Origin: an uncultured bacterium | GTDB lineage: Bacteria; Muiribacteriota; UBA9980 | Assembly: GCA_964545075.1 (NCBI GenBank) | Contig: CAZJFS010000001.1 | Span: 33,890 to 97,889 of the forward strand | Direction of reading: 5' to 3' | DNA: 64,000 bases | Shown here: positions 29,650 to 58,994 of the stretch, piece by piece | Layout of the letters: each line of letters opens with the position of its first letter | How positions within the stretch are numbered: the first letter of the stretch is position 1 | Translations under genes and position numbers: made by a program | Notes under the pieces: generated by a model | Told to the model about the DNA's origin: nothing | Databases searched by the model: none | The model's input: the letters and a program-made list of their open reading frames with translations, nothing else

Positions 29650-29708
29650 CAGCCGCCTCATCAACAATGCGAAAAAAATAACACACATAAAAAAAGGAAG
29701 AATGAAAA

Positions 29709-31352: not shown

Positions 31353-31361
31353 ATAAATCCA

Positions 31362-33826: not shown

Positions 33827-33832
33827 GTGTAA

Positions 33833-35062: not shown

Positions 35063-35131
35063 CAAAATCAGCGTTTCCGCTCGTCATTTTGCGGTAAGAA
35101 CCGAATAATAATACTATACAAAGGGGTTGAA

Positions 35132-35614: not shown

Positions 35615-35628
35615 AAAGGAGCGTAAAA

Positions 35629-41737: not shown

Positions 41738-42046
41738 ATGGACGTAAAAAACCAATCAAAAAAGTATATGCAGGTAATCGCTAAATGTTGGTCAGACCCG
41801 GCTTTCAAAACTAGTTTTATAAAAGATCCGGCTAAAGTACTCAAAGAAAATGGCGTTGAAATGCCTGCCGGCATGAAACTGCATGCCGTTGAAAATACCG
41901 AAAAAGAATGTTACATAATAATTCCGCCGAAACCTTCAACCGAGCTCTCGGACGATCAGCTTGATAAGGTCGCCGGTGGCGGCACTTGGGGAACTATAGG
42001 TTCCGCCTGCATCGCAACCGCTGGAACGGCTTATTGCCACGGTTAA
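41738..42046 (+). CDS. RiPP precursor peptide, nitrile-hydratase-like leader peptide (NHLP / proteusin-type) with Cys/Ser/Thr/Gly-rich core
   Basis: Leader MDVKNQSKKYMQVIAKCWSDPAFKTSFIKDPAKVLKENGVEMPAGMKLHAVENTEKECYIIIPPKPSTELSDDQLDKVAGG follows the NHLP pattern (...AWxDPAF...L.V.ENT......P.....ELSDEELE.VAGG) with a double-Gly cleavage motif. Predicted core GTWGTIGSACIATAGTAYCHG (2 Cys, 1 Ser, 4 Thr). Perfect SD. Immediately upstream of the cyclodehydratase gene. Confidence 0.85.
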   Translation: MDVKNQSKKYMQVIAKCWSDPAFKTSFIKDPAKVLKENGVEMPAGMKLHAVENTEKECYIIIPPKPSTELSDDQLDKVAGGGTWGTIGSACIATAGTAYCHG

Positions 42047-42083
42047 TCCATAAGAATTAATACAGCAAAATAATCAAATGAAA

Positions 42084-42130
42084 AACGGCCATCGTTAAGA
42101 GGCATTAAGCCTGCTGATGGCTGTTTTTCA
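42084..42130 (+). terminator. Hairpin + T-run after the precursor gene (probable partial terminator / attenuator)
   Basis: AACGGCCATC...GATGGCTGTT ~10-bp stem (one G-T wobble) with a ~22-nt loop, followed by TTTTT. Sits in the 132-nt gap between the precursor and the first modification enzyme. Confidence 0.4.
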
Positions 42131-42178
42131 TAGCATATGGCTTTTGATTTATTTATTTTTTGTTAAGGCGTTCATAAC

Positions 42179-44461: not shown

Positions 44462-44482
44462 TTATATTAAAAAGGATTCAGA

Positions 44483-45916
44483 ATGAATAAAGACTCGGAT
44501 ATTTTAAAATTTCGCGACGCGATTAATATTTCGGTGGTCTCCGGCGACGAAATCATAGTGCAGGACGAGATGTTTTCGCTAAAAATCCAGAATTGCTCAA
44601 AAGCGATAAGCTGTTTTTTAGACGCGATAAAAAACAGCGGCGGAAGCGAAGACTGTCTTTCGGAAATCGTTCTGGCCAATGGCGACAACAATGATCTGAT
44701 GAACTTTTATTACTATCTTGAAAGGTTTTCAAAACTTTGCATGATATCCAGAACGTTATGCGATAAAGGATTGAAAATGGTTACGCTAGAACCTATATCG
44801 CTTGGTTTTAAATGGAACGCTGAGCGCAAACTCGACGAAAATCAAAAACATGTGATGTCGCGGTTCGTCTTCTCTCGAAGAGACGGCGCGAAACATATAT
44901 GCGAATCGCCTTTATCGCTGGCCCGTCTGGTGATCATCGATGAAAAGTGCGCCGATTTTCTTCATTTCCTCTCATCGCCAATAAGCCTTGACGGGCTATG
45001 CGCGAAACTCCCTTCGCTCACGAAGGAATTTATCGAATATTTTCTTGAAACGCTTTTCAATTCAGGGTTCGTCGTCCCGGTTGCCGATGACGGGACGAGC
45101 GTCGAGGATAAGAGCGAAGCGCTGTTGCAGTGGGACTTCCATGATCTTTTGTTTCACTCGCGGACGCGCATAGGCCGTCATAATTACCCGAACGGCGCGA
45201 CATATCCTTATCTAAAAAAGATAGAGCCTCTTCCGGCGTATAAAGAGCCCATGACCGAAAACGGCATTGATTTATACAAACCCGATATCGAAACGCTTAA
45301 ATCCGAAGATTTTCCATTCACGCTCGTTTTAGAGCAGCGTCAATCGGTCAGAACTTACTCCGACCGGCCAATAAAGATGGAACAGCTCGGCGAATTTTTA
45401 TACCGGTCCTTCCGCATCAAGGAAGTGATCGACGCTCCGCCCGGCGAAGCCGAATCATATCAGGTCGGCCGCAGGACCTACGCCGGCGGCGGCGCATGCT
45501 ATGAACTTGAAATTTATCCGGTAATCAATAAATGCGAAGGGCTTGCGCGCGGAATATATCATTATGATCCGTTGAACCACAGATTGCATCTTATAAATGA
45601 TGATATGTTTTTCGTAGAGACGCTCGTACGGAGGGCGTCGATGTCCGCGGCCAAACTTTGCGTTCCGGAAGTATTATTCGCGATAACAGCCAGATTCGCT
45701 AGAATTTCATGGAAATACAGCGGAATGGCGTACGCCGCGATCTTAAAAAACGTGGGGTCATTATATCAAAATATGTATCTGGTCGCGACCGCCATGGACC
45801 TCGCCCCCTGCGCGCTCGGCAACGGCGAATCCGACGTCATCTGCAAAGCGGCGGGACTTGATTATATTTCAGAATCCGCCGTCGGCGAATTTATATTAGG
45901 CAATAAAAGGATTTAA
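44483..45916 (+). CDS. SagB/ThcOx-type FMN-dependent azoline dehydrogenase with N-terminal extension
   Basis: C-terminal nitroreductase-like domain (RQSVRTYSD...YAGGGACYELEIYPV...CALGNG) typical of SagB/McbC. The ~200-aa N-terminal extension is reminiscent of the RRE-like domains of cyanobactin ThcOx. 477 aa. Confidence 0.75.
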   Translation: MNKDSDILKFRDAINISVVSGDEIIVQDEMFSLKIQNCSKAISCFLDAIKNSGGSEDCLSEIVLANGDNNDLMNFYYYLERFSKLCMISRTLCDKGLKMVTLEPISLGFKWNAERKLDENQKHVMSRFVFSRRDGAKHICESPLSLARLVIIDEKCADFLHFLSSPISLDGLCAKLPSLTKEFIEYFLETLFNSGFVVPVADDGTSVEDKSEALLQWDFHDLLFHSRTRIGRHNYPNGATYPYLKKIEPLPAYKEPMTENGIDLYKPDIETLKSEDFPFTLVLEQRQSVRTYSDRPIKMEQLGEFLYRSFRIKEVIDAPPGEAESYQVGRRTYAGGGACYELEIYPVINKCEGLARGIYHYDPLNHRLHLINDDMFFVETLVRRASMSAAKLCVPEVLFAITARFARISWKYSGMAYAAILKNVGSLYQNMYLVATAMDLAPCALGNGESDVICKAAGLDYISESAVGEFILGNKRI

Positions 45917-45918
45917 TT

Positions 45919-47271
45919 ATGCGTAGAGTTATATGCACGTTTCCGGTGATGAAATTCACCGACGAGAAACCGGTCCAGATAAAAAACAGCTTTATCTCTC
46001 GAAGCTCTTCTCCATATAATATTTACCTGCTCGCATCGATAATGGAAAACAACGGATACGAGGTCGATATCAAGGATTGGATAAGCCTGAACTGCGACGT
46101 CGAAGAGGCCGCGAAGGAACTTCTGGAATATGATCTCGTTATGATATCGTGCCTTTCATGGTCATGGCCTCCGGTTATATTTATCATCGATTATCTTCGC
46201 AAAAAAAGAAACGACCAGATAATCGTCGTCGGCGGAGTGCAGGCATCTTTATTCGGCGTTCAGATCCTCGAAGAATTCGAGGTCGATTACGCAGTTTGCG
46301 GCGAGGCTGAAAGATCCATAATTCCGCTGATAGAAACTATAGAAAAAAAGGGCGATCCGCGCCGCGTACCAGGGCTCGTATATAAGGAAAACGGCGCTAT
46401 TATAAAAAACGAGCTGGCGTCCCTGCTGAATCCGTCGGAAATCGGCGAACTTCCGCTTCCGCTATATGAACGCCTTCCTAAAGATTCATGCAACTGGCTT
46501 TCGATACAATCCTCGCGCGGGTGCAGGAACCGCTGCATTTATTGCTCGGTGCCGTATCATCGCAGCTGGCGCCCGCTCGAACCGGAAAAATTCGTCGAAA
46601 AGATCATCGAATATTCGCCATTTCTTAAACGCACGCTTTCAGGAAAATTCATGATCATCGACGATAACTTCACCATAAATCCCGAAAGGTCCATCGCGAT
46701 AGCCAAGCTCTCGAAACAAAAAGGCGTTAAATTTGACGCCATCTGGAACGCCGAAGTTCCGGACCTTTATAATAGCGAGCTGCTCAGCGAAATGGCGCCA
46801 TTCACCGACGGGATTCTTGTAGGCGCGGAATCCTTCGATGCTGAAACGATCATCAAGATCGGCAAGGGTTATAAACCCGAAGATATCGTCGCTGGCGCCT
46901 TGAACGCTCAAAAATGCGGCATATCAAACAAACTCATATGCTCTTTTATTATAGGTTTTCCGTGGCAAACTAAAGAAATGATCATCGAGGAAATTAACCA
47001 AATATACGACCTGGTAAATCTGGCCGATCTAAACGTTATAATCAATTGGCTCACCCTTTCGCCGGGATCTCGGCTGTGGGCTGAAAAATTCAAACAGCCG
47101 ATCAAATTACGTGAATTTTCAAAACAATTCAGACGGATGCAGGAAAATATAAACATTCTTACGAATCAGGATATCGAAGAAATAAAAATGTATATAAAGC
47201 TTCTGCAATCCAACATAGAAAACGGTTATTACAGGTTCCAGCACCATCCCAGCATTTTTTATATTGTCTGA
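45919..47271 (+). CDS. B12-binding radical SAM enzyme (class B rSAM, probable C-methyltransferase)
   Basis: N-terminal B12-binding Rossmann-like region (IIVVGGVQAS...DYAVCGEAE), then the radical SAM cluster motif SSRGCRNRCIYCSVPY (CxxxCxxC). Confidence 0.75.
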   Translation: MRRVICTFPVMKFTDEKPVQIKNSFISRSSSPYNIYLLASIMENNGYEVDIKDWISLNCDVEEAAKELLEYDLVMISCLSWSWPPVIFIIDYLRKKRNDQIIVVGGVQASLFGVQILEEFEVDYAVCGEAERSIIPLIETIEKKGDPRRVPGLVYKENGAIIKNELASLLNPSEIGELPLPLYERLPKDSCNWLSIQSSRGCRNRCIYCSVPYHRSWRPLEPEKFVEKIIEYSPFLKRTLSGKFMIIDDNFTINPERSIAIAKLSKQKGVKFDAIWNAEVPDLYNSELLSEMAPFTDGILVGAESFDAETIIKIGKGYKPEDIVAGALNAQKCGISNKLICSFIIGFPWQTKEMIIEEINQIYDLVNLADLNVIINWLTLSPGSRLWAEKFKQPIKLREFSKQFRRMQENINILTNQDIEEIKMYIKLLQSNIENGYYRFQHHPSIFYIV

Positions 47272-47360
47272 TGGCATTCACTGATTTATCCGTGATTTTT
47301 CCATTCATGGATATTTCTTAATTCCGCGGCGAAAAAATATAATAAACGAAGGCGTGAATA

Positions 47361-49592
47361 ATGATAGAAAAACCTCTAATTAAACATCATTTCCAGATGG
47401 AGATCTTGAAAGAAAAAGTTTATCTTTTTTCTGAAAATGAAAATTTTATTCTTAAAGGTCGCCTTTATACCTCAATAGCGTCTCTTATGGATGGAAAAAG
47501 GTCCTGCCACGAAATAGCGGATATGCTTTCGGAAAATTTTTATCCCGCGGAAGTTTATTATGCTTTTGAAATAATGGAAAAAAAAGGCTATATAACCGAG
47601 GATTCACCATGTTTTAACGCTGAAGAAAAAAAATTCTGGAATTCGCTTGGGTTTCATACAAAAGACGTAGAAGAAAAACTTAAAAACACCCATCTTTCGC
47701 TTATATCTATAGGAAATCATCGGAAAATGGCTTCCCTTCTGAAGAAATATAAAATAGAAGTCTCTTCCGAGTCGAAATTTATGGTCGTTATAACGGATGA
47801 TTACATGCACGAAAGCCTTTCGGAGATCAACAGAGAAAACCTGAAAACCTGCAGGCCGTGGCTTCTAGTAAAACCTTCAGGGCTCATCCCTTCAATCGGG
47901 CCGCTTTTTATTCCCGGTAAAACTGCTTGTTATGAGTGCTTTTCCAACCGCTACAAAGCTAACAGGGAAATAAACGATTCTATTTTTCAAAAAATGCTGA
48001 AAGATAAAATTATGCCCTCGGCCACTATGCCTTTTACGGGCGATATTGTTTATCAAATGTCAGTTATGGAGATCGCCAGATATATAGCAGAAGGGAAAAA
48101 TGAAAGACTGGAAGGAAAAATCATAAGTTTTAATTCCCTGAATCTAAAAACAAAGGAACACATTCTCATAAAGCGACCCGAATGTAACTCTTGCGGAAAC
48201 CCTCATGAAAGAAGCCTTCTCTTTCCGGCGCAGATAAATTTACAAAGCAGAAAAAAGACGTATGTCACGGATGGAGATCATAGATCGTGCGACCCAGAAG
48301 CGACATTTGAAAAATATAAACACAATATCAGTGAATTTACAGGAGTTATAGCAAAATTTATAAACAATACAAGCGGTAATAAAGGGCCGCTTCACGTTTA
48401 CTTTTCCGGGCATAATCTCGCCCTTAATCCAGCCCATATAGCGGTCGAAAAGAACAGCCTTAGAAATCTCAGCGCCGGCAAAGGCATGACAGATATTCAG
48501 GCAAAGGTAAGTTCTCTCGCGGAAGCTTTGGAAAGATATTCGGGTATTTTTCGCGGCGACGAATACAGAATAAAAAGCACTTATAAAAAACTTGGCGATC
48601 AGGCAATTCATCCTAATAACTGCATGAATTACAGTAAAAGCCAGTATATAAATAGAATTGCCCTCAATAAAAGGGGGCTTCTTTTTCACACCGTCCCTCT
48701 TCCTTTCGATGAAGACATTGAAATAGAATGGTCTCCCGTCTGGTCTATATCGAAAAAAAACTGGAAATATCTGCCTACTTCTTACTGCTATTTCGGATAT
48801 AGGTATAAATACGAGGACGGCCGTGATTTTTTCGCCTGGGGAGATTCTAACGGTTTCGCTTCAGGCAATACCATAGAAGAAGCCATACTTCATGGTTTTT
48901 TTGAACTCGTAGAAAGAGACGCCGTCGCGATATGGTGGTATAATAAATTAACAAAGCCGGCCGTCGATCTTTCAAGTTTCAATCATCCATATATAAAAAA
49001 ATTAATGGATTATTATAATCTTTTAGGAAGAAACCTGTGGGTATTAGATCTCACTACCGATTTTAATATTCCTGTTTTCGCCGCCATTTCCATGAACCTG
49101 AAAAATAATATGGATGAAATTCTTTTTGCCTTTGGATGTCATTTCGATCCGGAAATTGCTCTTCTCAGATCTCTGTGTGAACTAAACCAGTTCGTTTCAA
49201 TCGCGATCGACAAACCTGAACACGATAACAATCATAATAACGATACGTCAAAGGCATGGTTGAAAAGCGCCGCGGTAAAAGATCATTCATATCTCGTGCC
49301 CGGAAAAACAATAAAAAGATTTCCGGATTATAAATCGCGTGCCACGGACGATCTTCTCAAAGATATACAATTATGTAACCAAGTAGTTGAAGAACTCGGC
49401 ATGGAAATGCTCGTACTCGATCAAACAAGAGCTGACGTAGGAATGAATGTAGTGAAGGTTATCGTACCGGGAATGAGGCATATGTGGGAAAGATTCAAGG
49501 AAGGACGTCTTTATGACGTTCCCGTAAAAATGAGATGGCTATCTGAAAAGAAAAATGAAAAAGAATTAAATCCAATAGGAGTATTTGTATAA
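47361..49592 (+). CDS. Fused E1-like + YcaO cyclodehydratase (PatD/TruD-like), copy 2 (paralog of 42179..44461)
   Basis: 743 aa. N-terminus HHFQMEILKEKVYLFSENENFILKGRLY parallels copy 1. CxxC motifs GKTACYECFSNRY and RPECNSCGNP. YcaO motifs GKGMTDIQAKVSSLAEALERYSG and FFELVERDAVAIWWYN. Both copies look intact. Confidence 0.85.
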   Translation: MIEKPLIKHHFQMEILKEKVYLFSENENFILKGRLYTSIASLMDGKRSCHEIADMLSENFYPAEVYYAFEIMEKKGYITEDSPCFNAEEKKFWNSLGFHTKDVEEKLKNTHLSLISIGNHRKMASLLKKYKIEVSSESKFMVVITDDYMHESLSEINRENLKTCRPWLLVKPSGLIPSIGPLFIPGKTACYECFSNRYKANREINDSIFQKMLKDKIMPSATMPFTGDIVYQMSVMEIARYIAEGKNERLEGKIISFNSLNLKTKEHILIKRPECNSCGNPHERSLLFPAQINLQSRKKTYVTDGDHRSCDPEATFEKYKHNISEFTGVIAKFINNTSGNKGPLHVYFSGHNLALNPAHIAVEKNSLRNLSAGKGMTDIQAKVSSLAEALERYSGIFRGDEYRIKSTYKKLGDQAIHPNNCMNYSKSQYINRIALNKRGLLFHTVPLPFDEDIEIEWSPVWSISKKNWKYLPTSYCYFGYRYKYEDGRDFFAWGDSNGFASGNTIEEAILHGFFELVERDAVAIWWYNKLTKPAVDLSSFNHPYIKKLMDYYNLLGRNLWVLDLTTDFNIPVFAAISMNLKNNMDEILFAFGCHFDPEIALLRSLCELNQFVSIAIDKPEHDNNHNNDTSKAWLKSAAVKDHSYLVPGKTIKRFPDYKSRATDDLLKDIQLCNQVVEELGMEMLVLDQTRADVGMNVVKVIVPGMRHMWERFKEGRLYDVPVKMRWLSEKKNEKELNPIGVFV

Positions 49593-49621: not shown

Positions 49622-52600
49622 ATGAGCGATAAAAAATTTTTTCGTCTCACGCATCCGCAGAAACGCATCTGGTACACTGAAAAAACATATTTAAATACGG
49701 CATTCGCGAATCTGGCCAACGTCATCAGATACAGGCGTGAAATAAACGTCGAAATTCTCGAAAAAGCTATAAAATCAGTAATCTCAAAGCACGAAGGCAT
49801 TCGCCTCAGACTTTCCGGCGAACGCGAAGGCATCGAAGAATTTCAATACGTTTCTGATTCAATCCCTGAAAAGATCGACCACCTTGATTTTTCAGGCCCG
49901 CGCGGAACGGATAAATTAGAGGAATGGATCTGCTCAAACGCTTCAACCCCGTTTCCGATATTTGACTCCCCGCTTTACTATTTCGCGACCATCCGCTTTG
50001 CAAATAACGATTCGGGCTATTCGGATACGGGATTTTATTTCAAGCTTCATCATATAATTTCCGACGGCTGGACGCTCGCCATTATTTATAATCAGGTTCT
50101 CGATCATTATTTAAAGATTGAAAGCGGACTTGAAAGCGAAATCAGCGACAATCCGACTTATTTGAATTACATCGGGGACGAGGACAATTATTTAACTTCT
50201 CCGGAATTCGCGGAAGACGAAAAATTCTGGTTTGACGACCTGTCAGACAAGCTGGACGTATCATCATTGAATCAGGACAAACCGGTCGCCTCTTCCATAC
50301 GATCTAAAAGGGCTATTTTTACGATTTCAAGAGAATTGCGCGAAAAAATCCACGAATATAAGCGATCGGGAAGCACCACGGTCTTTAAAATTATAACCGC
50401 GGCATTCTTCATATATATTTCGCGCGTCAATTCGGCGAAGAATATAGCGATCACGACGGCCGTCCACGGCCGGAACAATTCAAAAATGAGATCCACCGCG
50501 GGAATGTTCGTCGGCACCATACCATTGCGGATAACGATAGACGGGCGGGACACCTTTGAAAAGATCGTCTCGAGCCTCGGCGAAAAATTGAACTACATAA
50601 TTAAGAAGCCCGCCAGATACCCTTTTGACATGCTCATCAACAGGATGCGCGAAGAAAAAAATCCCAACGCCGATATTATGCTTGAATGCCCGAGCGTCGT
50701 CGGCCATCCTGACGATAAAAACGAGGACATATCGTTTATAAACCATTATCAGAGCTATGAACCTTCATGCCTTGCCATGCACATAAATCCCTTTGGAACC
50801 GACGCAAAAGGCAAACTTGACATCATACTCGATTACCAGACGGAACTATTTTCCCATGAAAATATCGAAACGGTCTTTAATTCACTTTCATGCATATTGA
50901 ACGATGCGCTGGATAACGTTAAAAAGTCCGTCTGCGATTTGAATATGATTTCGGAAGAAGAAAAAAGAAAGGTCTTAGTAGATTTTAACCGGACCGAAGA
51001 ACAATTTTCTGGCGGAGAGACGCTTTTCGATCTTTTCGAGGAGGCGTCAAAAAAATATCCGCGAAGGACGGCGCTCGTTTACGACGACGTTTCCATAACC
51101 TATTCGGAGCTTTCGGACAAAGTCGGGCGGCTCGCCTCGAGGCTCGCGAATCTCGGCGTCGGACCCGAAAAAATAGCGGCGATATACGCGCAACGCTCGC
51201 AATATTACGTTATAGCTATGCTCGCCATAATGAAGGCGGGCGGAGCGTATCTGCCGATCGACGTTTCATATCCCCGCGAACGGGTCAATTTCATGCTTAA
51301 AGACGCCGAAGTCTCGGCCGTGCTTACCATGGAAAACCTTAACGATAAATTCGACTGCGACGCTTCACGCGTCTTTTTAGATGACGAAAATTCATATACC
51401 GGCGCTCCATGCGATTTAAAATCTCAGGCTGCGGCAAGAAATCTCGCGTATATAATATATACCTCGGGTTCCACCGGCAAACCCAAAGGCGTTATGATAG
51501 AACACCGCTCGGCCGTAAACATGATATGCTGGAGCATAAAGCATTATCAAATGAGCCACCAGGACCGGTGCGCCCAGTTCGCGTCGTTCGCTTTCGACGC
51601 CTCGGTGCCGCAGACATTTTCGCCTCTCGCCAGAGGCGCGGAGCTTCATATTTTAAAAGACGATTTGCGTTATTCGCCATTGCTCGCCAACGATTATTTT
51701 GAAAAAAACGGCATAACCTATGCCGATCTTCCGACCCAGTTCTGCGAGCAATTCATCAGGGAAACGAACAATCACTCGTTAAGAAGGGCTACCACTGGCG
51801 GTGAAAAATTAAAAAATGCGCCGGAGAACATAAATTTCGTGCTTACCGATGAATACGGCCCGACCGAATGCACCGTCACCGCGACATATTATGACGTGGA
51901 CGGAAAATATTCAAAGACGCCCATTGGAAAACCTATATCTAACATCAGGGTGTATATTCTCGATAAAAAAGATCTTCCCGTTCCGGTAGGAGCGCCGGGA
52001 GAACTATGCGTCGCGGGCGCGGGCCTGGCCAGAGGCTATCTCAACAGGCCCGAGCTGACGGTGGAAAAATTCGTCGCCGACCCGTTCATGCCGGGCGAAA
52101 AAATGTACCGCACCGGCGATCTCGCCAGGTGGCTGCCCGACGGCAATATCGATTATCTCGGCCGCATCGATCATCAAGTCAAAATAAGAGGATTCAGAGT
52201 CGAGCTGGAAGAGATACAAAATGAGATAATCAAACATCCAATGGTCAGCGACGCCGTTATAGCGAACGGCAAGAACGCCGACGGCGATGATTTTATTTCG
52301 GCGCATATAATACTGAAAAAAGAAGCGGACGGGATTAATTTTTCACATGAGCGAATCAATGAATTTCTTTCAAAAACTCTTCCAAATTATATGCTGCCCT
52401 CGAAAATAATGTTCATCGACAGGATACCGCTGACATCGGGCGGCAAGGCCGATAAAAAAGCGCTTCTGGCAATGCTGCCTGAAGAAGGCCGACTGGCCGC
52501 GTTCGTCGCGCCGTCGAATGAAACGGAAAAAACGCTGGCCGGAATCTGGTCGGAACTTTTAAACGTCAAAAAAATCGGCGTAACGGATGATTTTTTTGAG

Positions 52601-55600
52601 CTCGGCGGCCATTCGCTGAAAGCGGCCTCTCTTCAATTGAGCGTTAAAAAGGCTTTCGCAGTTGAAATATCGCTTCACGATATTTTTTCGGCCCCGACGA
52701 TAAAGGCGCTGGCCGGAATCATTAAAAATAATTCGCGCACGGCCGGTTCTTCGATCACGCGAGCGCCTGAAAGAAAACACTATCCGCTTTCAGCCGCGCA
52801 AAAAAGGCTTTTCGTGATGGACCGGATATCCGGCGGAAAAACCACATATAACCTGACCTCGGCATTTAAGATACGCGGCCCGCTCGACGCGACGAGGTTT
52901 GGAAACGCCATTCGCGCGGCCATCGAAAGGCATTCGGCTTTCGGCACCCGCTTCGAGGAGGTCGACGGCGAGCCGGTGGCCGTCATCGAAAAAAACGTTA
53001 AATTCAAACGCAATTATATTGAAACCAATGAAGAAAGCGCCATCGCAGCGATCAGGGATTTCATAAAGCCTTTCGATCTTAAAAGAGCGCCGCTTTTCAG
53101 GATACTGCTCATTAAGTACGCCGAAGACGGGCATATTTTCGTCTTCGACGCCCATCACATAATTTTCGATGGTATATCGTCTAACGTATTTATGCATGAA
53201 ATCTGCGAGTTATACGCCGGACGCACTTTAGAAAAACTCGAATTCGATTATCAGGATTACGCGGTATGGCAGAACGAGGTCATGCCCGAATCCTCTTCAA
53301 TTCAAAAACAGCAGGATTACTGGTTGAACGTTTTTAAAAACGACGTCGAGCCCCTTGAGATCCCGACCTCCAGGCCCAGAAATGCCGACATATCATATTC
53401 GGGTTCGAGGGTGCTTTTAAATCTCGACGGGCTTTCAAACGATCTTGAAAAGCTTTCGACGAGATGCTCGGCGACTAATTTCACGACGCTGATGGCTTTA
53501 TTTTTCGTATTGCTGCATAAATATTCCGGCCAGTCCGATATCGTTTCAGGGGTTCCGGCCGCCGGCCGTGAAAACGCCGAATTCGAGAAAACCGTCGGCA
53601 TGTTCGTGAACACTCTGGCCATAAGATCTTACCCGGAAGCATGTAAGCCCTTCGCTTCGTTCGTAAATGAAATTAAAAATTCCTTTGTTTCGGCGCTCGA
53701 CAATCAACAATATCAGTTCGACCGGCTCGTCGAAAAGCTCGGCTTGAAACGCATGCCGGGCCGCAATCCTCTCTTCGACGTCATGTTCGCCTATGAAGAC
53801 ATGGAAAACTCGACCTTCAAAACGGAAAACATCGAAATGACCAATTACGCCTTCGACGCCGGCATATCGAAATTCGACCTCACTCTTTTCGCCTCGCGCG
53901 GAAACGGCTCTCTGGAACTTTCGCTCGAATACCGCGACTCTCTTTTTGAAAGAGCCATGGCTGAGAGGTTTTTAAATCATTTCGCCGCTCTCTTGAAAAA
54001 CGCCGCGGCCGATCCCGAAGCCACGATAGGCGACATCGACGCAATGGGGGAAAACGACCTTCAAAAATTAATACGAGGTTTCAATGCAACCGGCGCCGCT
54101 TATCCGGCGGACACCACTCTAATCTCGCTTTTCGAAAAAAAAGCCTCGGAAAGCCCTGATTTGTGCGCGCTCGTATATGACGGTAAAACAATGACTTACT
54201 CGGAACTCAATGAAAAGGCCAACCGCCTCGCGTGGCGGCTCAAAGAAAATATATATTCTAAAAATGAAATATTCGGGATACTCCTAGACCGATCTTTTGA
54301 AATGGTGGTTTCGATACTTGCGGCGCTCAAGGCCGGCGGCGCTTACCTTCCTATAGATCCGTCCTATCCGGCCGAAAGGATAGAGTATGTCATTTCAGAC
54401 AGCGGGATTAAAACGCTTTTAACCGAAAAAAAGCATATGGCGGCCGTTTCCTTTAATAACAATATGATCGATATTCATGAAGGAACATCGTATTCCGCCA
54501 GAACCGAAAACCCCGAACCCGTAAATAGCGGCGAGGACATAATATACATAATTTATACTTCCGGTTCCACGGGCCGGCCGAAAGGCGTAATGGTAAAGCA
54601 CAAGGGCGCGCTCAATTATATCTGGTGGTGCAAAAAAGTCTACGCCGAAGACGGCGCGTGCGATTTTCCGCTTTATTCCTCCATATCTTTCGATCTCACC
54701 GTAACTTCCATATTCACTCCGCTTATTTGCGGCGGAAAGATCGTCATATACGGCGAGCGTGAAAAGGAAACGCTTATCGACAGAATTATAGCGGAAGATA
54801 ACGTCGATATAGTGAAGCTCACTCCAACTCACCTTCAGATCATTGAAGGTATGAAGATAAACTGTAAAAAGATCAGAAAATTCATAGTCGGCGGCGAAGA
54901 TCTCAAGGCCGATCTGGCCATGAAGATATTCAAAAAATTCAATAATAAAATCCGGATATTCAACGAATATGGCCCGACGGAAACCACCGTCGGCTGCATG
55001 ATCTACGAATTTTCACCTTCCGACGCAAAAGCGTTATCGGTTCCGATAGGAATTCCGGCCGCGAACACCATGATTTACATACTTGGAAAAGACCTGAAAC
55101 CCGTTCTTCCCGGAACGACGGGCGAGATATATATTTCCGGAGACGGCGTGGCCCGCGGATATCTCAATAAAAGCGAAATGACTGCCGCTAAATTCGTCAG
55201 CGATCCGTTCAACCCGGAAAGGACAATGTACAAAACCGGCGATCTTGCGCGAATGCTTCCAAGCTGGAATGTAGAATTTCTGGGGCGCATCGACGATCAG
55301 GTAAAACTCAGAGGCTTCAGGATCGAGATTGGAGAGATCGAGGCCGAACTTTTAAGGCATTCATCGATCCGCGAAACCGCAGTATTATTAAGGGAAGACG
55401 CGCAGTCGGGCAAATATCTTTGCGCATACTACACCGTTTCAGGCGAAACCGGGCCCGGGCCCGAGCCTGATATTAAAGAGCTCAAGGCGCACCTCGCCAA
55501 ACGGCTGCCTTATTATTTCATTCCGGACGTTTTCATGAAGCTTGAAAATATTCCGGTAACGGCCAACGGCAAACTGGACAGAAAGGCGCTGCCGGACCCG

Positions 55601-57523
55601 CGCGAAAACGCGGACGCAAGGGCGCAATATGCAAGCCCCCGAAACGATACCGAACGATACATGGCGAAAGTCTGGTCCGATATTCTCGGCGTAAAACGGA
55701 TAGGTATCGACGATAATTTTTTCGAGCTCGGCGGTCATTCCCTAAAAGCGGTTAAAGTCGCGATGCGGCTTTCGGGCGATTTTGAAATTTCCGTCAACGA
55801 TATTTTTGAGCATCAGAGCATACGCAGCTTATCGGAATCGGTGAAGCCCGTTTCAGGAAATTTAAAAACGAAACTCAACGAATTGAAATATTTCGCGCCG
55901 CGGCCGATGAAAATGCGGGATGAAAAGATACTTCAAAAACTTCAAGAATATAACGAATCAATTCAAAAAATCGAATATACTGCGACGGATCGGCAAAAAA
56001 AATATGAAAACATCTTTCTCAGCGGTTCCACGGGTTATTTAGGTTCATACATTCTTAACGAGCTCCTCGAAAATAAAAGCGGAAATATACATCTTTTGAT
56101 AAGGGCGAAAGATCGCGATGAAGCATTTTCGCGCCTTAAAGAAAGATATGAATATTATTTCGGGAAAGGCTCGCTCGATAAACACGGCGGCAGGATCTTC
56201 GCGCACGCCGGCGATCTGTCAAAAGAAAATTTCGCGCTCGCGAACGATGAATATTCCATCTTATGCAAAAGCGTGGACTGCATAATTAATTCAGCGGCCG
56301 ATGTGAGGCATTTCGGACATTATCAGCAATTTTTCGACGCCAACGTATCGAGCCTGGAAAATCTTATAAAATTCGCGTCGACAGAAAAAAACAAGGACAT
56401 AAACCACATTTCCACGATGTCGGTGGCTTCGGGGGACATCTCCGGAGTTTCAGAAACGCTTTTCACCGAAGATGACGTAGATATCGGACAAGCGCTGACA
56501 AATTACTATCTCAAGACGAAGTTTCTGGCGGAAAAAGCCGCGGTTGCGGCAAGATCAGCCGAAATAAGCGTCAATATATTCAGGGTGGGAAACCTCACAT
56601 TCAATTCGAAAACGGGATTGTGTCAGCGCAATATCCAGGAAAACGCCTTTTATAAAATAATAAAATCCCTTACCGTCCTCGGATACGTTCCAAATTCATC
56701 CGATGAAGCCGAATTTTCATTCGTCGATTGCGCCGCCCGCGCAATAACGCTCTTATTCGACAGAAATGAAAACGGGATCTTCCACATAGTCAACCCTAAA
56801 GCCGTAAAGCTTTCAAAGCTGCTTTCGGCGGTTGAAACCGGGCTCGATATAAAGGTGTGCGATTTTAAAAGCTTTATCGGCGAACTTCAAAAAAATTGCG
56901 ACGACAGAATTTTCAGGCCGGAAATAGACGAACTTTTGCTTCACCGCGACTGGGCCGATGAAATGCAATGCCAGACAAGATATTGCACGCTTTCAGACCG
57001 GACGGTCAATCTGCTTTTAAAACTGGGTTTTGAATGGCCCGACGCTGACGGTTCGAAATGCTTCGAAATGATAGTCACGGCGCTCGGCGAGCGGATAAAT
57101 TTTTTGAAACGCCATCCCTTGTTCGCGAAATTATCCGACAAAACGATTAAACGCGCGGCCCTGATGATGCGCGAAATACATTATAAAGACGAGGAAACGA
57201 TCGCGTGGGAAAACGAACCTTCCCCGGGGGCGAACATTATAACCGAAGGCGTGGTCGAAATATCGATGCATTCGAAAAATTCATGGATCGGCACGATCGG
57301 CGTCCTTGGAAAAGACGAACTTATCGGATTCGACAGCGCATTTAACGGAGGGATTTCAAGCATCATAGCTGGGGCCGTCATGGGACAGGCCAACGCTTTA
57401 TATATTTCAAATGAAAATATTATCAAAATAGCTATGATAGAACCGCTTTTTGCGATCAATATCGCGTCGGAATTATCTAAAAAATTGATCAATGCGCAAA
57501 ATATAATAATCAATCTCGACTGA
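49622..57523 (+). CDS. Bimodular non-ribosomal peptide synthetase C-A-T-C-A-T-R with an extra C-terminal cNMP-binding-like domain
   Basis: 2633 aa, SD GGAGG. C1 HHIISDGWT (aa ~143). A1 YTSGSTGKPKGV (~aa 610) and YRTGDLARW...GRIDHQVKIRGFRVELEEI. T1 FFELGGHSLKA (~aa 990). C2 HHIIFDGIS (~aa 1175). A2 YTSGSTGRPKGV (~aa 1644) and YKTGDLARM...GRIDDQVKLRGFRIEIGEIE. T2 FFELGGHSLKA (~aa 2037). Thioester reductase LSGSTGYLGSYILNELL (~aa 2135). The last ~140 aa match the cNMP-binding fold. Starts 29 nt after the second cyclodehydratase gene. Confidence 0.9.
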   Translation: MSDKKFFRLTHPQKRIWYTEKTYLNTAFANLANVIRYRREINVEILEKAIKSVISKHEGIRLRLSGEREGIEEFQYVSDSIPEKIDHLDFSGPRGTDKLEEWICSNASTPFPIFDSPLYYFATIRFANNDSGYSDTGFYFKLHHIISDGWTLAIIYNQVLDHYLKIESGLESEISDNPTYLNYIGDEDNYLTSPEFAEDEKFWFDDLSDKLDVSSLNQDKPVASSIRSKRAIFTISRELREKIHEYKRSGSTTVFKIITAAFFIYISRVNSAKNIAITTAVHGRNNSKMRSTAGMFVGTIPLRITIDGRDTFEKIVSSLGEKLNYIIKKPARYPFDMLINRMREEKNPNADIMLECPSVVGHPDDKNEDISFINHYQSYEPSCLAMHINPFGTDAKGKLDIILDYQTELFSHENIETVFNSLSCILNDALDNVKKSVCDLNMISEEEKRKVLVDFNRTEEQFSGGETLFDLFEEASKKYPRRTALVYDDVSITYSELSDKVGRLASRLANLGVGPEKIAAIYAQRSQYYVIAMLAIMKAGGAYLPIDVSYPRERVNFMLKDAEVSAVLTMENLNDKFDCDASRVFLDDENSYTGAPCDLKSQAAARNLAYIIYTSGSTGKPKGVMIEHRSAVNMICWSIKHYQMSHQDRCAQFASFAFDASVPQTFSPLARGAELHILKDDLRYSPLLANDYFEKNGITYADLPTQFCEQFIRETNNHSLRRATTGGEKLKNAPENINFVLTDEYGPTECTVTATYYDVDGKYSKTPIGKPISNIRVYILDKKDLPVPVGAPGELCVAGAGLARGYLNRPELTVEKFVADPFMPGEKMYRTGDLARWLPDGNIDYLGRIDHQVKIRGFRVELEEIQNEIIKHPMVSDAVIANGKNADGDDFISAHIILKKEADGINFSHERINEFLSKTLPNYMLPSKIMFIDRIPLTSGGKADKKALLAMLPEEGRLAAFVAPSNETEKTLAGIWSELLNVKKIGVTDDFFELGGHSLKAASLQLSVKKAFAVEISLHDIFSAPTIKALAGIIKNNSRTAGSSITRAPERKHYPLSAAQKRLFVMDRISGGKTTYNLTSAFKIRGPLDATRFGNAIRAAIERHSAFGTRFEEVDGEPVAVIEKNVKFKRNYIETNEESAIAAIRDFIKPFDLKRAPLFRILLIKYAEDGHIFVFDAHHIIFDGISSNVFMHEICELYAGRTLEKLEFDYQDYAVWQNEVMPESSSIQKQQDYWLNVFKNDVEPLEIPTSRPRNADISYSGSRVLLNLDGLSNDLEKLSTRCSATNFTTLMALFFVLLHKYSGQSDIVSGVPAAGRENAEFEKTVGMFVNTLAIRSYPEACKPFASFVNEIKNSFVSALDNQQYQFDRLVEKLGLKRMPGRNPLFDVMFAYEDMENSTFKTENIEMTNYAFDAGISKFDLTLFASRGNGSLELSLEYRDSLFERAMAERFLNHFAALLKNAAADPEATIGDIDAMGENDLQKLIRGFNATGAAYPADTTLISLFEKKASESPDLCALVYDGKTMTYSELNEKANRLAWRLKENIYSKNEIFGILLDRSFEMVVSILAALKAGGAYLPIDPSYPAERIEYVISDSGIKTLLTEKKHMAAVSFNNNMIDIHEGTSYSARTENPEPVNSGEDIIYIIYTSGSTGRPKGVMVKHKGALNYIWWCKKVYAEDGACDFPLYSSISFDLTVTSIFTPLICGGKIVIYGEREKETLIDRIIAEDNVDIVKLTPTHLQIIEGMKINCKKIRKFIVGGEDLKADLAMKIFKKFNNKIRIFNEYGPTETTVGCMIYEFSPSDAKALSVPIGIPAANTMIYILGKDLKPVLPGTTGEIYISGDGVARGYLNKSEMTAAKFVSDPFNPERTMYKTGDLARMLPSWNVEFLGRIDDQVKLRGFRIEIGEIEAELLRHSSIRETAVLLREDAQSGKYLCAYYTVSGETGPGPEPDIKELKAHLAKRLPYYFIPDVFMKLENIPVTANGKLDRKALPDPRENADARAQYASPRNDTERYMAKVWSDILGVKRIGIDDNFFELGGHSLKAVKVAMRLSGDFEISVNDIFEHQSIRSLSESVKPVSGNLKTKLNELKYFAPRPMKMRDEKILQKLQEYNESIQKIEYTATDRQKKYENIFLSGSTGYLGSYILNELLENKSGNIHLLIRAKDRDEAFSRLKERYEYYFGKGSLDKHGGRIFAHAGDLSKENFALANDEYSILCKSVDCIINSAADVRHFGHYQQFFDANVSSLENLIKFASTEKNKDINHISTMSVASGDISGVSETLFTEDDVDIGQALTNYYLKTKFLAEKAAVAARSAEISVNIFRVGNLTFNSKTGLCQRNIQENAFYKIIKSLTVLGYVPNSSDEAEFSFVDCAARAITLLFDRNENGIFHIVNPKAVKLSKLLSAVETGLDIKVCDFKSFIGELQKNCDDRIFRPEIDELLLHRDWADEMQCQTRYCTLSDRTVNLLLKLGFEWPDADGSKCFEMIVTALGERINFLKRHPLFAKLSDKTIKRAALMMREIHYKDEETIAWENEPSPGANIITEGVVEISMHSKNSWIGTIGVLGKDELIGFDSAFNGGISSIIAGAVMGQANALYISNENIIKIAMIEPLFAINIASELSKKLINAQNIIINLD
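57100..57520 (+). other. C-terminal cyclic-nucleotide-binding (CAP-effector)-like domain within the NRPS (coordinates approximate)
   Basis: LKRHPLFAKLSDKTIKRAALMMREIHYKDEETIAWENEPSPGANIITEGVVEISMH...GVLGKDELIGFDSAF...ALYISNENIIKIAMIEPLFAINIASELSKKL follows the cNMP-binding consensus (hP.F..L.......a.....y..ge.I..eG......y.I..G.v......g.l..Ge.fGe.a........A.....l.....f..l....P.f...l...l). Confidence 0.5.
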
Positions 57524-57542: not shown

Positions 57543-58994
57543 GTGGTAAATAACAGCGAATCTGACGGCGGAACCGGAAAAAAGACCGGACCGTCTTCAG
57601 TTTATATTATATTCGTCCTCGCGCTGGGCGTTTTCATGGTCAATCTCGACGCCAGCATAGTCAATATAGTTCTGCCCACGCTGGCCAAATTATTCAGCGT
57701 AGACATGTACGTAGTGTCGCGCGTGGTGCTTTCATATCTGCTTTCATTCAGCGGTTTTCTGCTGATATTCGGCCGGTTGAGCGACATTCACGGCGCCAAT
57801 AAAATATTTGGATACGGTTTTCTCGTCTTCACATTGTCATCGGTATTATGCGCGACATCGCGGACTTTTGTAATGCTTGAAATTTCAAGATTCATGCAGG
57901 GAATAGGGGCGGCCATGCTGGCCTCGACATATTCGGCTCTTGTAATAAAGCTTCTGCCGCCTGAAATAAGAGGACGGGCGTTCGGCTTCATCACCGTCGC
58001 CGGAGGAGCCGGTTTCGCCATGGGCGCGCCCGTCGGAGGCTATCTCACCCATTATTTCAACTGGCGCTGGATATTTTGGATGAACGTCCCTATCGGCATA
58101 TTTTCACTTATCTCGTCGTGGAAACTGATAAAGGAAAGATCTGAAGGCAATATAACAACCGGAGCTTTTGATAGGACCGGAGCTTTTTTAAGTTTCGGAG
58201 GGCTCGTCCTGATCACTTATCTTTTAAATTCAGCAAAAAATTATCCGCCGACATCTATCATACCGTGGGCCGGAATCGCCGTTTTCATAGCGGTTTTCGC
58301 GTATTTTTTAAGAGTCGAAAAACGCCACCCTGAACCGCTGCTCGATCTTTCATTGTTTTCGAACAGAAATTTCAATTTTTCTTTCATCGCAAATTTTTTC
58401 GTTGTAATGACGCTGGACGGAATGAATTTTCTGTTTCCATTTTTTTTCGAACTCGGACGCGGCATGAAGCCCGATAAAATAGGAATGCTGCTGATGCTGT
58501 TTCCTCTGATTTCAATGTTTGTAAGCCCGGTGGCCGGATATTTCGCCGATCGAAAAGGCCCGAGGGCGGTCTGCGTTTTTTCTACGGTCATGCTGGCTTT
58601 ATCGGTCGCAATGCTCTGCTTCATAGATCTGACCACTTCGATCTATTACATAATAATCACTCTTATAATATTCGGGTGCTCGCTCGCCATGTTCTTCACC
58701 GCGAACACGAGCCTTATGATGTGCCACGCCCCGGCCGGCCGCGAAGGCATCACTTCGGCCATGGTTTCTTTTAACGCCAATCTTGGAACGCTTTTAGGCG
58801 TTTGTTTTTTTGAAAGTATTTTTTCATACGGGCTTCCGGCGGGCATAGTTTCAAACCAGCTCATGGAAGGCGCTTCAAGGATGATAGCCACCGGCTTTAA
58901 CCACGGCGCCATTTTCGCGCTGATAATAAGCCTGATGGCCGCCAGATCGTCTTTCATAGCGCGTGAAAAAAAGACCGGCGCCATTTCCGCATGA
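57543..58994 (+). CDS. MFS transporter, DHA2 (EmrB/QacA, 14-TMS) drug-efflux family
   Basis: 483 aa with ~14 hydrophobic segments. N-terminal MFS motifs (LGVFMVNLDASIVNIVLP, GRLSDIHG). Immediately downstream of the NRPS, consistent with export of the product. Confidence 0.75.
   Translation: MVNNSESDGGTGKKTGPSSVYIIFVLALGVFMVNLDASIVNIVLPTLAKLFSVDMYVVSRVVLSYLLSFSGFLLIFGRLSDIHGANKIFGYGFLVFTLSSVLCATSRTFVMLEISRFMQGIGAAMLASTYSALVIKLLPPEIRGRAFGFITVAGGAGFAMGAPVGGYLTHYFNWRWIFWMNVPIGIFSLISSWKLIKERSEGNITTGAFDRTGAFLSFGGLVLITYLLNSAKNYPPTSIIPWAGIAVFIAVFAYFLRVEKRHPEPLLDLSLFSNRNFNFSFIANFFVVMTLDGMNFLFPFFFELGRGMKPDKIGMLLMLFPLISMFVSPVAGYFADRKGPRAVCVFSTVMLALSVAMLCFIDLTTSIYYIIITLIIFGCSLAMFFTANTSLMMCHAPAGREGITSAMVSFNANLGTLLGVCFFESIFSYGLPAGIVSNQLMEGASRMIATGFNHGAIFALIISLMAARSSFIAREKKTGAISA

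What the first reader, a model, noticed from the sequence alone, without database searches (positions are those of the whole stretch)
57100..57523. Cyclic-nucleotide-binding-like domain fused to the C-terminus of an NRPS terminal reductase
The last ~140 aa of the NRPS follow the CAP-family cNMP-binding consensus (hPlF..L....i......E.i..eG....y.I.eG.vei...lGe.iG....A...i...l...P.f...l). I am not aware of NRPS termination modules carrying a cNMP sensor. If real, it suggests allosteric control of reductive release, or of product type, by cAMP/cGMP. A PAS-adenylate cyclase is encoded in the same window (17781-18830).
Basis: partly seen in the sequence, partly recalled or inferred. Interest (0 to 1): 0.6.

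Follow-up and report, generated by a model that had tools for sequence, protein, structure and literature searches.

The report
Sensor-fold domain capping an NRPS reductase
A peptide-making assembly-line enzyme (NRPS) of an uncultured Wallbacteria bacterium ends in a real cyclic-nucleotide-binding-fold domain; about 40 related enzymes share it, no paper found here describes it, and it lacks the residues needed to bind cAMP or cGMP in the usual way.

Summary
ORF 49622-57523 encodes a 2633-aa NRPS with the domain order C-A-T-C-A-T-R. After the reductase (R) it continues, with no linker, stop or frameshift, into a 145-aa domain (aa 2489-2633, nt 57086-57520).

Evidence that this is a cyclic-nucleotide-binding (CNB) fold:
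- Pfam PF00027 is below threshold for this sequence alone (24.7 vs 27.5 bits).
- phmmer finds a CRP-type CNB structure (2pqq, E 1.7e-7).
- A profile of 39 homologues hits PKG, PKA-R and CRP CNB domains at E 1e-17 to 1e-35.
- An alignment-based AlphaFold model (pLDDT 95) superposes on GlxR and M. tuberculosis CRP effector domains (TM 0.83-0.85).

The fusion recurs. About 38 cluster representatives out of 1.84 billion proteins are NRPSs ending ...T-R-CNB.

The cAMP/cGMP reading is weak:
- The phosphate-binding Arg is Ser, Ala, Thr, Asn or Gly in 39 of 39 members. It is Ser2579 here.
- This protein also has Phe2570 in place of the ribose-binding Glu.
- The PAS-cyclase lies 31 kb away, with housekeeping genes in between.
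- What the family conserves is a β4-β5 flap (S..GW.GT), an N-helix Arg and the C-terminal end of a CRP-like long helix.

Best reading: a cis regulatory or assembly module on the release domain with a non-cNMP input. No description was found in the literature searched.

The parts
49622..57523 (+). NRPS gene, 2633 aa, domain order C-A-T-C-A-T-R-CNB (stop codon 57521-57523)
   Evidence: ORF list and translation; Pfam domains; the exact protein is in NCBI as part of a Candidatus Wallbacteria MAG contig of 117,842 bp
56009..57043 (+). Terminal thioester reductase (R) domain, aa 2130-2474. NADPH motif GSTGYLG at aa 2135-2141; S/T-Y-K residues T2265, Y2296, K2300
   Evidence: PF07993 E 1.2e-48; TIGR01746 E 2.8e-57, 194.7 bits, below its 213 cut-off; invariant columns in alignment A1; motif positions
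57086..57520 (+). CNB-fold (CAP/CRP effector-type) domain, aa 2489-2633. It follows the R domain with no linker and ends the protein
57086..57112 (+). N-terminal helix GERINFLKR, with family-conserved Arg2491 (36/39). It aligns with the last residues of CNB-less R domains (..KVKYL, ..AVNFL), so it appears to continue the R domain's end
   Evidence: alignment A1, conservation table, secondary structure of the model
57272..57295 (+). β4-β5 flap motif SKNSWIGT (family S..GW.GT). Trp2555 is invariant 39/39, Gly2557 38/39, Thr2558 37/39. This is the best-conserved, family-specific feature
57326..57376 (+). Degenerate phosphate-binding cassette GFDSAFNGGISSIIAGA. Phe2570 sits at the ribose-binding Glu position and Ser2579 at the phosphate-binding Arg position
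   Evidence: HMMER alignment to 2pqq; profile alignment to PKG PBCs; column counts; coordinates
57443..57517 (+). Long amphipathic C-helix (aa 2608-2632), of the kind that forms the dimer interface in CRP-family proteins. The family ends in a conserved ..V-N-x-G; no HTH domain follows
   Evidence: model secondary structure H125-149; 141-148 aligned columns with GlxR/CRP, including this helix; conservation
57543..58994 (+). MFS transporter gene starting 19 bp after the NRPS stop; likely exporter of the product
   Evidence: PF07690 E 4e-50; MFS genes also flank R-CNB NRPSs in L001, L011 and L012

Best explanation
The NRPS ends in a genuine CRP/FNR-type CNB-fold domain. The domain belongs to a distinct 'Ser-type' subfamily that has lost the phosphate-binding arginine. 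It is a conserved, selected module of a clade of reductive-release NRPSs (...T-R-CNB), not a one-off fusion.

Shown:
- the fold;
- the fusion;
- its recurrence;
- the loss of the canonical cNMP contacts;
- a family-specific conserved surface, made of the β4-β5 flap S..GW.GT, the N-helix Arg, and the C-terminal end of the long C-helix.

Inferred: the domain acts in cis on the release step. Its N-helix continues the last helix of the R domain, so a change in the CNB domain could be passed to the R domain's C-terminal substrate/PCP-docking subdomain. That change could be binding of a ligand other than cAMP/cGMP, or CRP-like pairing of the C-helices. It would gate or tune NADPH-dependent release of the dipeptidyl thioester as an aldehyde. 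In this protein and its two closest relatives the pocket is the most degenerate, so here the flap and helix surface probably matters more than the old nucleotide pocket.
For: Fold and homology:
-;
- (pLDDT 95.1);
- (TM 0.83-0.85 to GlxR/CRP).

Recurrence:
- phmmer of the 150 aa against 1.84e9 representatives gives 128 hits.
- About 38 of the best-scoring ones are NRPSs with R immediately followed by the CNB domain at the extreme C-terminus. They have 1 to 4 modules.
- Pfam confirms two more genomic examples, from an Acetivibrio MAG and a 375-kb metagenome contig.

Selection:
- The CNB domain is 48% and 40% identical to P0012 and P0013, against 45-69% for their catalytic and carrier domains.

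Non-canonical pocket:
- The Arg column is S30/A6 plus T, N and G, with no Arg, in 39/39. The Glu is kept in 22/39.
- The window has F2570 and S2579.
- Canonical CRP-like hits in the same hmmalign show P-R-S-A-T in the same columns, so the alignment register is right.

Family-specific conservation is away from the PBC:
- W72 39/39, G74 38/39, T75 37/39, G71 36/39, R8 36/39, V147 30/39.

Tight junction:
- CNB-less R homologues end exactly where the CNB N-helix lies.

Context:
- Most of the small R-CNB clusters seen (NRPS plus PPTase and/or MFS) show no transcription factor in the flanks available. This fits regulation built into the enzyme.
Against: - No ligand, no dimer and no effect on the R domain has been shown. 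All mechanism steps are inference.
The contact between the flap or helices and R is therefore unverified.
- Pocket residues are only moderately conserved, which could mean there is no ligand at all.
- Three CNB-less R domains (P0002, P0003, P0005) nest inside the CNB-bearing clade in an unbootstrapped NJ tree. The domain may therefore be dispensable.
- Class III cyclase genes lie within 5-31 kb in the three closest relatives, which keeps a nucleotide link alive.
Confidence: 0.55

Rival explanations
1. One reading: the domain is a working cAMP/cGMP receptor that couples second-messenger levels to reductive release, or to the type of product.
For: - CNB fold.
- The Gly-Glu of the cassette survives in 22/39 family members.
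- A class III cyclase gene lies 7.7 kb from the NRPS in L002, 4.5 kb in L007 and 31 kb in the window. These are the three closest relatives.
- A GGDEF gene directly follows the NRPS in L010.
Against: - The phosphate-binding Arg is absent in 39/39 members. This protein also lacks the Glu, having F2570 and S2579.
- In PKA the Arg neutralises the cyclic phosphate. Its replacement by polar residues in kinetoplastid PKA-R goes with cAMP independence (PMC10959531).
- The three cyclases have different architectures (PAS, unknown N-terminus, FIST), positions and orientations.
- None is found in the nine other R-CNB loci (L015 checked only).
- Cyclases appear only in the subclade whose pocket is most degenerate. 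That looks like a taxon effect.
- In the window, unrelated housekeeping genes separate the cyclase from the cluster.
Confidence: 0.1
2. The domain binds no ligand. It serves as a constitutive dimerisation or docking piece. Either it pairs two NRPS chains through the CRP-like C-helix, or it recruits a partner such as the MFS exporter or a PP2C/partner-switching protein through the conserved flap.
For: - Best structural matches are dimeric CRP-family effector domains, including the long C-helix.
- A hydrophobic stripe is conserved along the 25-residue terminal helix, and the ..VN.G end is conserved.
- Conservation concentrates on the flap rather than the pocket.
- SpoIIE-type PP2C genes sit next to the NRPS in L004 (overlapping its stop, followed by an RsbW-like kinase) and in L013. 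A STAS gene is present in L001.
- Ser2551 and Thr2558 are near-invariant and Ser2579 is conserved in 30/39; all three are possible phospho-sites.
Against: - No oligomer or complex model could be made.
- The partner-switching genes occur in only 3 of 12 loci.
- NRPS termination modules are not known to need dimerisation (general knowledge).
- The Gly-Glu and the short cassette helix are retained in most members, which hints at a pocket still in use.
Confidence: 0.3
3. Artefact or misassignment: a chance match, a divergent cupin, or a frameshifted or mis-assembled fusion of a separate downstream gene.
For: - PF00027 is below the gathering score for this sequence alone.
- Word-indexed homologue searches found almost nothing.
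- Single-sequence AlphaFold was poor, pLDDT 41.
Against: - Profile, structure and PDB evidence are all specific for CNB domains.
- The same reading frame runs through the junction.
- Identical C-termini occur in three other assemblies.
- About 38 independent NRPSs have the same architecture.
Confidence: 0.01

Closest known systems
Effector (cNMP-binding) domains of CRP/FNR-family regulators: GlxR, M. tuberculosis CRP, S. coelicolor 2pqq
   Same: Same fold, including the N-helix, the 8-stranded barrel, the short cassette helix and the long C-helix. These are the best sequence and structure matches.
   Different: - No DNA-binding HTH follows; the protein stops at the end of the C-helix.
- The domain sits at the C-terminus of an enzyme.
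- The cassette Arg is Ser, and here the Glu is Phe.
- It has an invariant-Trp flap motif that the canonical CRP-like hits lack.
Kinetoplastid PKA regulatory-subunit CNB domains, which bind purine nucleosides rather than cAMP (PMC10959531)
   Same: A CNB fold whose phosphate-binding Arg is replaced by a small polar residue, making it independent of cyclic nucleotides. These structures (6ftf, 6h4g) are among the Foldseek hits.
   Different: - The kinetoplastid signature also has Ala-to-Glu in G-E-x-E and a capping Tyr from an extra αD helix.
- The NRPS family has Ser/Asn at that position and ends after αC.
- Nucleoside binding here is only an analogy.
Two-module reductive-release NRPSs that make dipeptide aldehydes or pyrazinones, e.g. 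S. aureus AusA (A-T-C-A-T-R; PMC12153313)
   Same: Same assembly-line logic and the same type of R domain. NCBIfam aureusi_NRPS matches the R region at E 1.8e-48, and TIGR01746 at E 2.8e-57.
   Different: - Scores are far below the equivalog cut-offs.
- The window's NRPS has an extra N-terminal C domain.
- As I recall, described members end at the R domain. No paper found here reports a CNB domain on an NRPS.
MFS/TLC-like transporter - HEAT repeat - CNB proteins (~1000 aa; P0045, P0053, P0057, P0110...)
   Same: Nearest non-NRPS sequence relatives of the domain. They share the Ser-type cassette (P-S-x-x-[ST]-A-[EQ]) and a ..EGTIG flap.
   Different: - Mostly no Trp in the flap (P0057 has GWEGTIG).
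- A different host protein.
- I know of no established function for these proteins.
CNB domains built into other natural-product machinery: Family 2B encapsulin shells such as EshA of 2-methylisoborneol clusters (PMC8346489, PMC11550324), and CAP_ED domains on long-type C39-peptidase ABC exporters of cyanobacterial bacteriocin clusters (PMC4558948)
   Same: Precedent for a CNB-fold domain being part of a biosynthetic or export protein rather than a transcription factor.
   Different: The host proteins are a shell protein and a transporter, not a megasynthase catalytic end. I did not test sequence relatedness to them.

Membership tests
Cyclic nucleotide-binding domain superfamily (Pfam PF00027 / CAP_ED) | Sequence match to the PF00027 profile above the curated cut-off | tested here: inconclusive
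   The window sequence scores 24.7 bits against a cut-off of 27.5 (E 2.3e-5). However, 38/39 homologues match (best 2.5e-18), and L004 and L016 pass the cut-off at 29.8 and 35.9 bits.
Cyclic nucleotide-binding domain superfamily (Pfam PF00027 / CAP_ED) | Homology to solved CNB domains, and the 8-stranded beta-barrel with αA, αB and αC helices | tested here: met
   - phmmer to 2pqq, E 1.7e-7.
- Profile to PKG, PKA-R and CRP, E 1e-17 to 2.6e-35.
- Model pLDDT 95.1.
- Foldseek probability 1.0, TMq up to 0.85.
Functional cAMP/cGMP receptors (CRP, PKA-R, PKG, Epac, HCN type) | Phosphate-binding cassette with Gly-Glu (ribose 2'-OH) and Arg-[Ser/Thr] (cyclic phosphate) | tested here: not met
   The window has Gly2569-Phe2570 and Ser2579-Ser2580. 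The Arg column holds no Arg in 39/39 family members; three have an Arg one residue off.
Functional cAMP/cGMP receptors (CRP, PKA-R, PKG, Epac, HCN type) | Measured binding of cAMP or cGMP | not testable with these tools
   Needs ITC, DSF or a fluorescent-analogue assay on the purified domain.
CRP/FNR transcription factors | C-terminal helix-turn-helix DNA-binding domain after the C-helix | tested here: not met
   The protein ends at aa 2633, at the end of the C-helix. No HTH family was found.
NRPS terminal thioester reductase (PF07993 / TIGR01746) | SDR Rossmann motif GxxGxxG, S/T-Y-K catalytic residues, and position directly after a PCP domain | tested here: met
   - PF07993 E 1.2e-48, above its cut-off.
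- TIGR01746 at 194.7 bits, below its 213 cut-off.
- GSTGYLG at 2135; T2265, Y2296 and K2300 are invariant in A1.
- A PP-binding domain lies upstream.
Kinetoplastid-type nucleoside-binding CNB ('ribose-binding cassette') | Arg replaced by a polar residue, plus Ala-to-Glu in G-E-x-E, plus a capping Tyr from αD | tested here: not met
   Arg-to-Ser is met. The G-E-x-E position is Ser/Asn in the family (Ser2572 in the window), and there is no αD helix.

The most novel reading that the evidence does not exclude
R-CNB NRPSs are assembly lines whose release step is switched after translation by a sensor domain built into the enzyme. The switch would respond to a non-cyclic-nucleotide small molecule (a nucleoside-like compound, a precursor or the product), or to Ser/Thr phosphorylation by partner-switching kinases and PP2C phosphatases acting on the conserved flap. 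As far as I know, that would be a first case of allosteric, signal-dependent control of NRPS termination.
Probability: 0.3. Interest if true: 0.8.

Novelty: new variant of a known kind. Interest (0 to 1): 0.6.

Why it matters
As far as I know, NRPS output is controlled mainly at transcription, and I know of no signal-sensing domain hard-wired to a release domain. This study finds a conserved clade of about 40 sequence clusters. The organisms named for these loci are a Wallbacteria MAG and an Acetivibrio MAG; most other members come from unclassified metagenome contigs. In this clade a CRP-type sensor fold is welded to the reductase.

If the domain gates release, three things follow:
- it would show a new level of control for making peptide aldehydes, which are often protease inhibitors or signals;
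- it would give engineers a possible ligand-controlled off-loading switch;
- it would define the ligand of a wider 'Ser-type' CNB subfamily, shared with the transporter-HEAT-CNB proteins, that cannot bind cyclic nucleotides in the standard way.

If the domain is only a dimerisation or docking piece, it still matters for structural models of NRPS termination.

Tried and rejected
- **Word-indexed homologue searches.** The 150-aa domain and the 39-sequence profile found nothing useful. The exhaustive HMMER search was needed.
- **Single-sequence AlphaFold.** It failed, pLDDT 41, and cost one of the two structure jobs. No R-CNB didomain or dimer model could therefore be made.
- **The search for related loci.** The one genome scan found a single R-CNB genome, an Acetivibrio MAG. 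The one metagenome scan found four loci, three of them distinct.
- **Exact look-up of the NRPS in the contig index.** It failed, but the cluster look-up identified the source as Candidatus Wallbacteria.
- **Cupin, chance match or frameshift.** Rejected.
- **Opposite-strand ORF 57181-57513.** No family match.
- **Cyclase as cluster partner.** Rejected for the window on distance and intervening genes. It is not general across loci.
- **Promoter and terminator scans.** Not above shuffled background, so uninformative.
- **Literature.** No paper links an NRPS or thioester reductase to a CNB domain. Subscription-only papers are not covered.
- **A-domain specificity codes and the starter-C type.** Not determined.


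Full report
**1. What is at the coordinates**

The finding lies at the 3' end of one long ORF, 49622-57523 on the + strand (2633 aa). Pfam gives two modules of Condensation, AMP-binding and PP-binding. A thioester-reductase-type NAD_binding_4 domain follows (aa 2133-2375, E 1.2e-48). Last comes a PF00027 cNMP_binding match at aa 2519-2597. NCBIfam places the R domain at aa ~2130-2474 (TIGR01746, E 2.8e-57).

The R domain has the GSTGYLG nucleotide motif and the invariant T2265, Y2296 and K2300, so it looks catalytically competent.

The protein then runs on for about 145 aa (aa 2489-2633, nt 57086-57520) in the same frame, with no linker. CNB-less R-domain relatives (P0002, P0003) end exactly where the first helix of the extra domain lies..KKVKYL and ..KAVNFL against ..GERINFLKR.

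**2. Is it more than chance?**

Taken alone, the Pfam hit is below threshold: 24.7 bits against a gathering score of 27.5, E 2.3e-5. Four independent lines settle the question.

- phmmer of the 150 aa against all PDB sequences gives a Streptomyces CRP-type CNB domain (2pqq) at E 1.7e-7. Below it come mainly Crp/Fnr, PKG and PKA-R CNB domains.
- An exhaustive HMMER search of 1.84 billion representatives returns 128 hits. I aligned 39 of the domains (A2). Of these, 38 hit PF00027, the best at 2.5e-18.
- The A2 profile finds solved CNB domains at E 1e-17 to 2.6e-35.
- AlphaFold2 with A2 gives pLDDT 95.1 and pTM 0.87. The Foldseek matches listed (top 50 of 617 at E <= 0.001) are all CNB domains. 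The best are GlxR and M. tuberculosis CRP: TMq 0.83-0.85, rmsd about 2 Å, 141-148 aligned columns that include the long C-helix.

A cupin or a chance match is excluded.

The fusion is not an assembly artefact either. The exact protein is in NCBI on a 117,842-bp contig. Three fragments from other assemblies (HNY13357.1 and two JGI contigs) end with the identical C-terminus. The source names attached to these clusters say Candidatus Wallbacteria bacterium.

**3. The fusion is a family trait**

I scanned the 128 hits with the window's own C, A, T and R domains. About 38 of the best-scoring ones are NRPSs in which R is followed directly by the CNB domain at the extreme C-terminus.

- C-A-T-C-A-T-R-CNB is the commonest form. 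Examples are P0012 (2639 aa, 49% identical in the CNB domain), P0013, P0020, P0022 and P0026.
- Assembly lines with one, three and four modules also occur, up to P0032 at 4895 aa.
- Pfam confirms further genomic cases: an Acetivibrio MAG with A-T-C-A-T-R-CNB (PF00027 29.8 bits), and a 375-kb metagenome contig with C-C-A-T-R-CNB (35.9 bits).
- In L001 the R-CNB 'gene' is the tail of an NRPS broken by scaffold gaps.
- One protein is Condensation + CNB (P0093).

Against its two closest relatives the CNB domain is 48% and 40% identical, compared with 45-69% for their catalytic and carrier domains. It is maintained, not decaying.

In an unbootstrapped NJ tree the CNB-bearing R domains form one clade, with three CNB-less proteins nested inside. 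This suggests a single gain with occasional loss, but the tree is weak.

**4. The pocket is not a canonical cNMP site**

HMMER's alignment to 2pqq puts Phe2570 opposite the cassette Glu and Ser2579 opposite the cassette Arg. In the profile alignments to PKG the family consensus ..GE.s.l..e.pSsvTAEA lines up with ..GE.ALL.DEPRSAT...

Column counts over 39 members:

- Arg position: Ser 30, Ala 6, then Thr, Asn and Gly once each. There is no Arg. Three members have an Arg one residue away.
- Glu position: Glu in 22 of 39.

The window and its two closest relatives have lost both residues (GF, AC and GF at the Gly-Glu position). Canonical CRP-like hits aligned in the same run show P-R-S-A-T in the same columns, so the register is right.

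The Arg neutralises the cyclic phosphate in PKA. Kinetoplastid PKA-R, where the Arg is replaced by polar residues, ignores cAMP and binds purine nucleosides instead (PMC10959531). The NRPS family does not carry the rest of that signature: it has no G-E-x-E Glu and no αD cap. Nucleoside binding is therefore an analogy, not a prediction.

The nearest non-NRPS relatives are ~1000-aa transporter-HEAT-CNB proteins. They share the Ser-type cassette and a related flap. This defines a wider CNB subfamily whose ligand I do not know.

**5. What the family does conserve**

The strongest columns are:

- Trp2555 (39/39), Gly2557 (38/39), Thr2558 (37/39), position 2554 (Gly in 36/39; Ser in the window) and Ser2551 (34/39). 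Together these form S..GW.GT on the β4-β5 hairpin.
- Arg2491 in the N-helix (36/39).
- Pro2608 at the start of the C-helix.
- A hydrophobic stripe along the 25-residue C-helix, ending in ..V-N-x-G.

From general knowledge of CRP, the β4-β5 flap and the C-helix and hinge are the elements that move on effector binding, and the C-helix makes the dimer. In the NRPS family the protein stops where the CRP hinge would begin.

I infer that the conserved surface is an interaction surface. The partner could be the R domain, the PCP, a second CNB domain or another protein. The N-helix, which continues the end of R, is the likely route for passing any change on to the release domain.

**6. Context and the cyclase argument**

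The NRPS sits in a co-directional gene string:

- an NHLP-type RiPP precursor (41738-42046; PF02979, E 2e-15);
- a PatD-like YcaO;
- a ThcOx-like oxidase;
- a B12-radical SAM enzyme;
- a second YcaO;
- the NRPS, starting 30 bp later;
- an MFS transporter, starting 19 bp after the NRPS stop.

TrmFO upstream and HemC downstream bound this string.

A GH57 branching enzyme, a beta-lactamase-fold protein, acetate kinase and other genes separate it from the NRPS.

Class III cyclases do occur 7.7 kb and 4.5 kb from the NRPS in the loci of the two closest relatives. Their architectures, positions and orientations all differ. None occurs in the nine other R-CNB loci (L015 was checked only by the phmmer scan). 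The subclade that has cyclase neighbours is the one with the most degenerate pocket. I read this as a taxon effect, though the sample of 12 loci is small.

Other signalling neighbours seen:

- a GGDEF gene directly after the NRPS in L010;
- a SpoIIE-type PP2C overlapping the NRPS stop, followed by an RsbW-like kinase, in L004;
- a dCache-HAMP-SpoIIE gene convergent on the NRPS in L013;
- a STAS gene in L001.

PPTase and MFS genes are the commonest companions.

**7. Verdict**

| Reading | Confidence |
|---|---|
| Conserved cis-acting regulatory or assembly module on the reductive release domain, with an input other than canonical cNMP | 0.55 |
| Purely structural dimerisation or docking role | 0.3 |
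| True cNMP sensor | 0.1 |
| Artefact | 0.01 |

I found no paper describing an NRPS-CNB or reductase-CNB fusion in the searchable library. Precedents for CNB domains inside natural-product machinery do exist, in encapsulin shells and in C39-peptidase exporters.

I rate it a new variant of known kinds, with interest 0.6. The architecture is real, recurrent and apparently undescribed, and it points to post-translational control of NRPS off-loading. The mechanism remains inference.

Noticed in passing
window 41738-49592 (+), continuing into the NRPS at 49622: A complete thiazole/oxazole-type RiPP set sits directly upstream of the NRPS and runs in the same direction. It comprises a 102-aa NHLP-family precursor (leader ...ELSDDQLDKVAGG, Cys/Ser/Thr-rich core GTWGTIGSACIATAGTAYCHG), two PatD-like wHTH-YcaO cyclodehydratases, a ThcOx-like azoline oxidase and a B12-radical SAM enzyme. 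Only 30 bp separate the last YcaO from the NRPS start. This could be a RiPP/NRPS hybrid cluster or two abutting clusters. None of the other R-CNB loci has YcaO genes.
   Followed up: partly
L004 11604-14186; L013 10705-13677 (-); L001 4393-4728 (-): Partner-switching parts lie beside three R-CNB NRPSs. In the Acetivibrio MAG a SpoIIE/PP2C phosphatase overlaps the NRPS stop and is followed by an RsbW-like HATPase_c_2 kinase and then the PPTase. In L013 a dCache-HAMP-SpoIIE sensor phosphatase converges on the NRPS. L001 has a STAS gene. This could mean phospho-control of the conserved Ser/Thr in the CNB flap, or it could be coincidence.
   Followed up: partly
L010 18081-18731 (GCA_030542965.1, JAUAOA010000021.1): A 216-aa GGDEF (diguanylate cyclase) gene lies directly downstream of a C-A-T-C-A-T-R-CNB NRPS. 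Some CRP-like proteins bind c-di-GMP (from memory), so this ligand should be included in binding tests.
   Followed up: no
L002 23850-25148 (-); L007 22553-24655 (-); window 17781-18830 (+): Each of the three closest R-CNB relatives has one class III adenylate/guanylate cyclase within 5-31 kb. The N-terminal sensor parts differ (unknown, FIST, PAS) and there is no synteny. The other loci have none.
   Followed up: yes
proteins P0045, P0053, P0057, P0058, P0110, P0113 (not in the window): A family of ~750-1000-aa MFS/TLC-like transporter + HEAT repeat + C-terminal CNB proteins carries the same arginine-less 'P-S-x-x-T/S-A-Q' cassette and an '..EGTIG' flap. They are the nearest non-NRPS relatives of the domain. 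I know of no ligand for them.
   Followed up: partly
protein P0093 (645 aa, not in the window): Condensation domain followed by the same type of CNB domain (PF00027, E 3.5e-12). The CNB domain may therefore also cap NRPS ends that are not reductases, unless this is a fragment.
   Followed up: no
window 18914-20276 (-): Two response-regulator receiver proteins (208 and 222 aa, with the receiver at the C-terminus) lie next to the PAS-adenylate cyclase. This suggests a local signalling unit unrelated to the NRPS cluster.
   Followed up: no
window 13311-17113 (-): A fatty-acid CoA ligase family protein, an alpha/beta hydrolase and a KAS III-like ketosynthase lie together. They could supply an acyl starter for the N-terminal C domain of the NRPS, but they are 32 kb away.
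   Followed up: no
window 24000-36000: A long block of + strand genes with unusually high AT skew (0.18-0.24). It includes a DUF4912 protein, a GH57 branching enzyme, a beta-lactamase-fold protein, an ankyrin/Sel1-repeat protein and acetate kinase.
   Followed up: no
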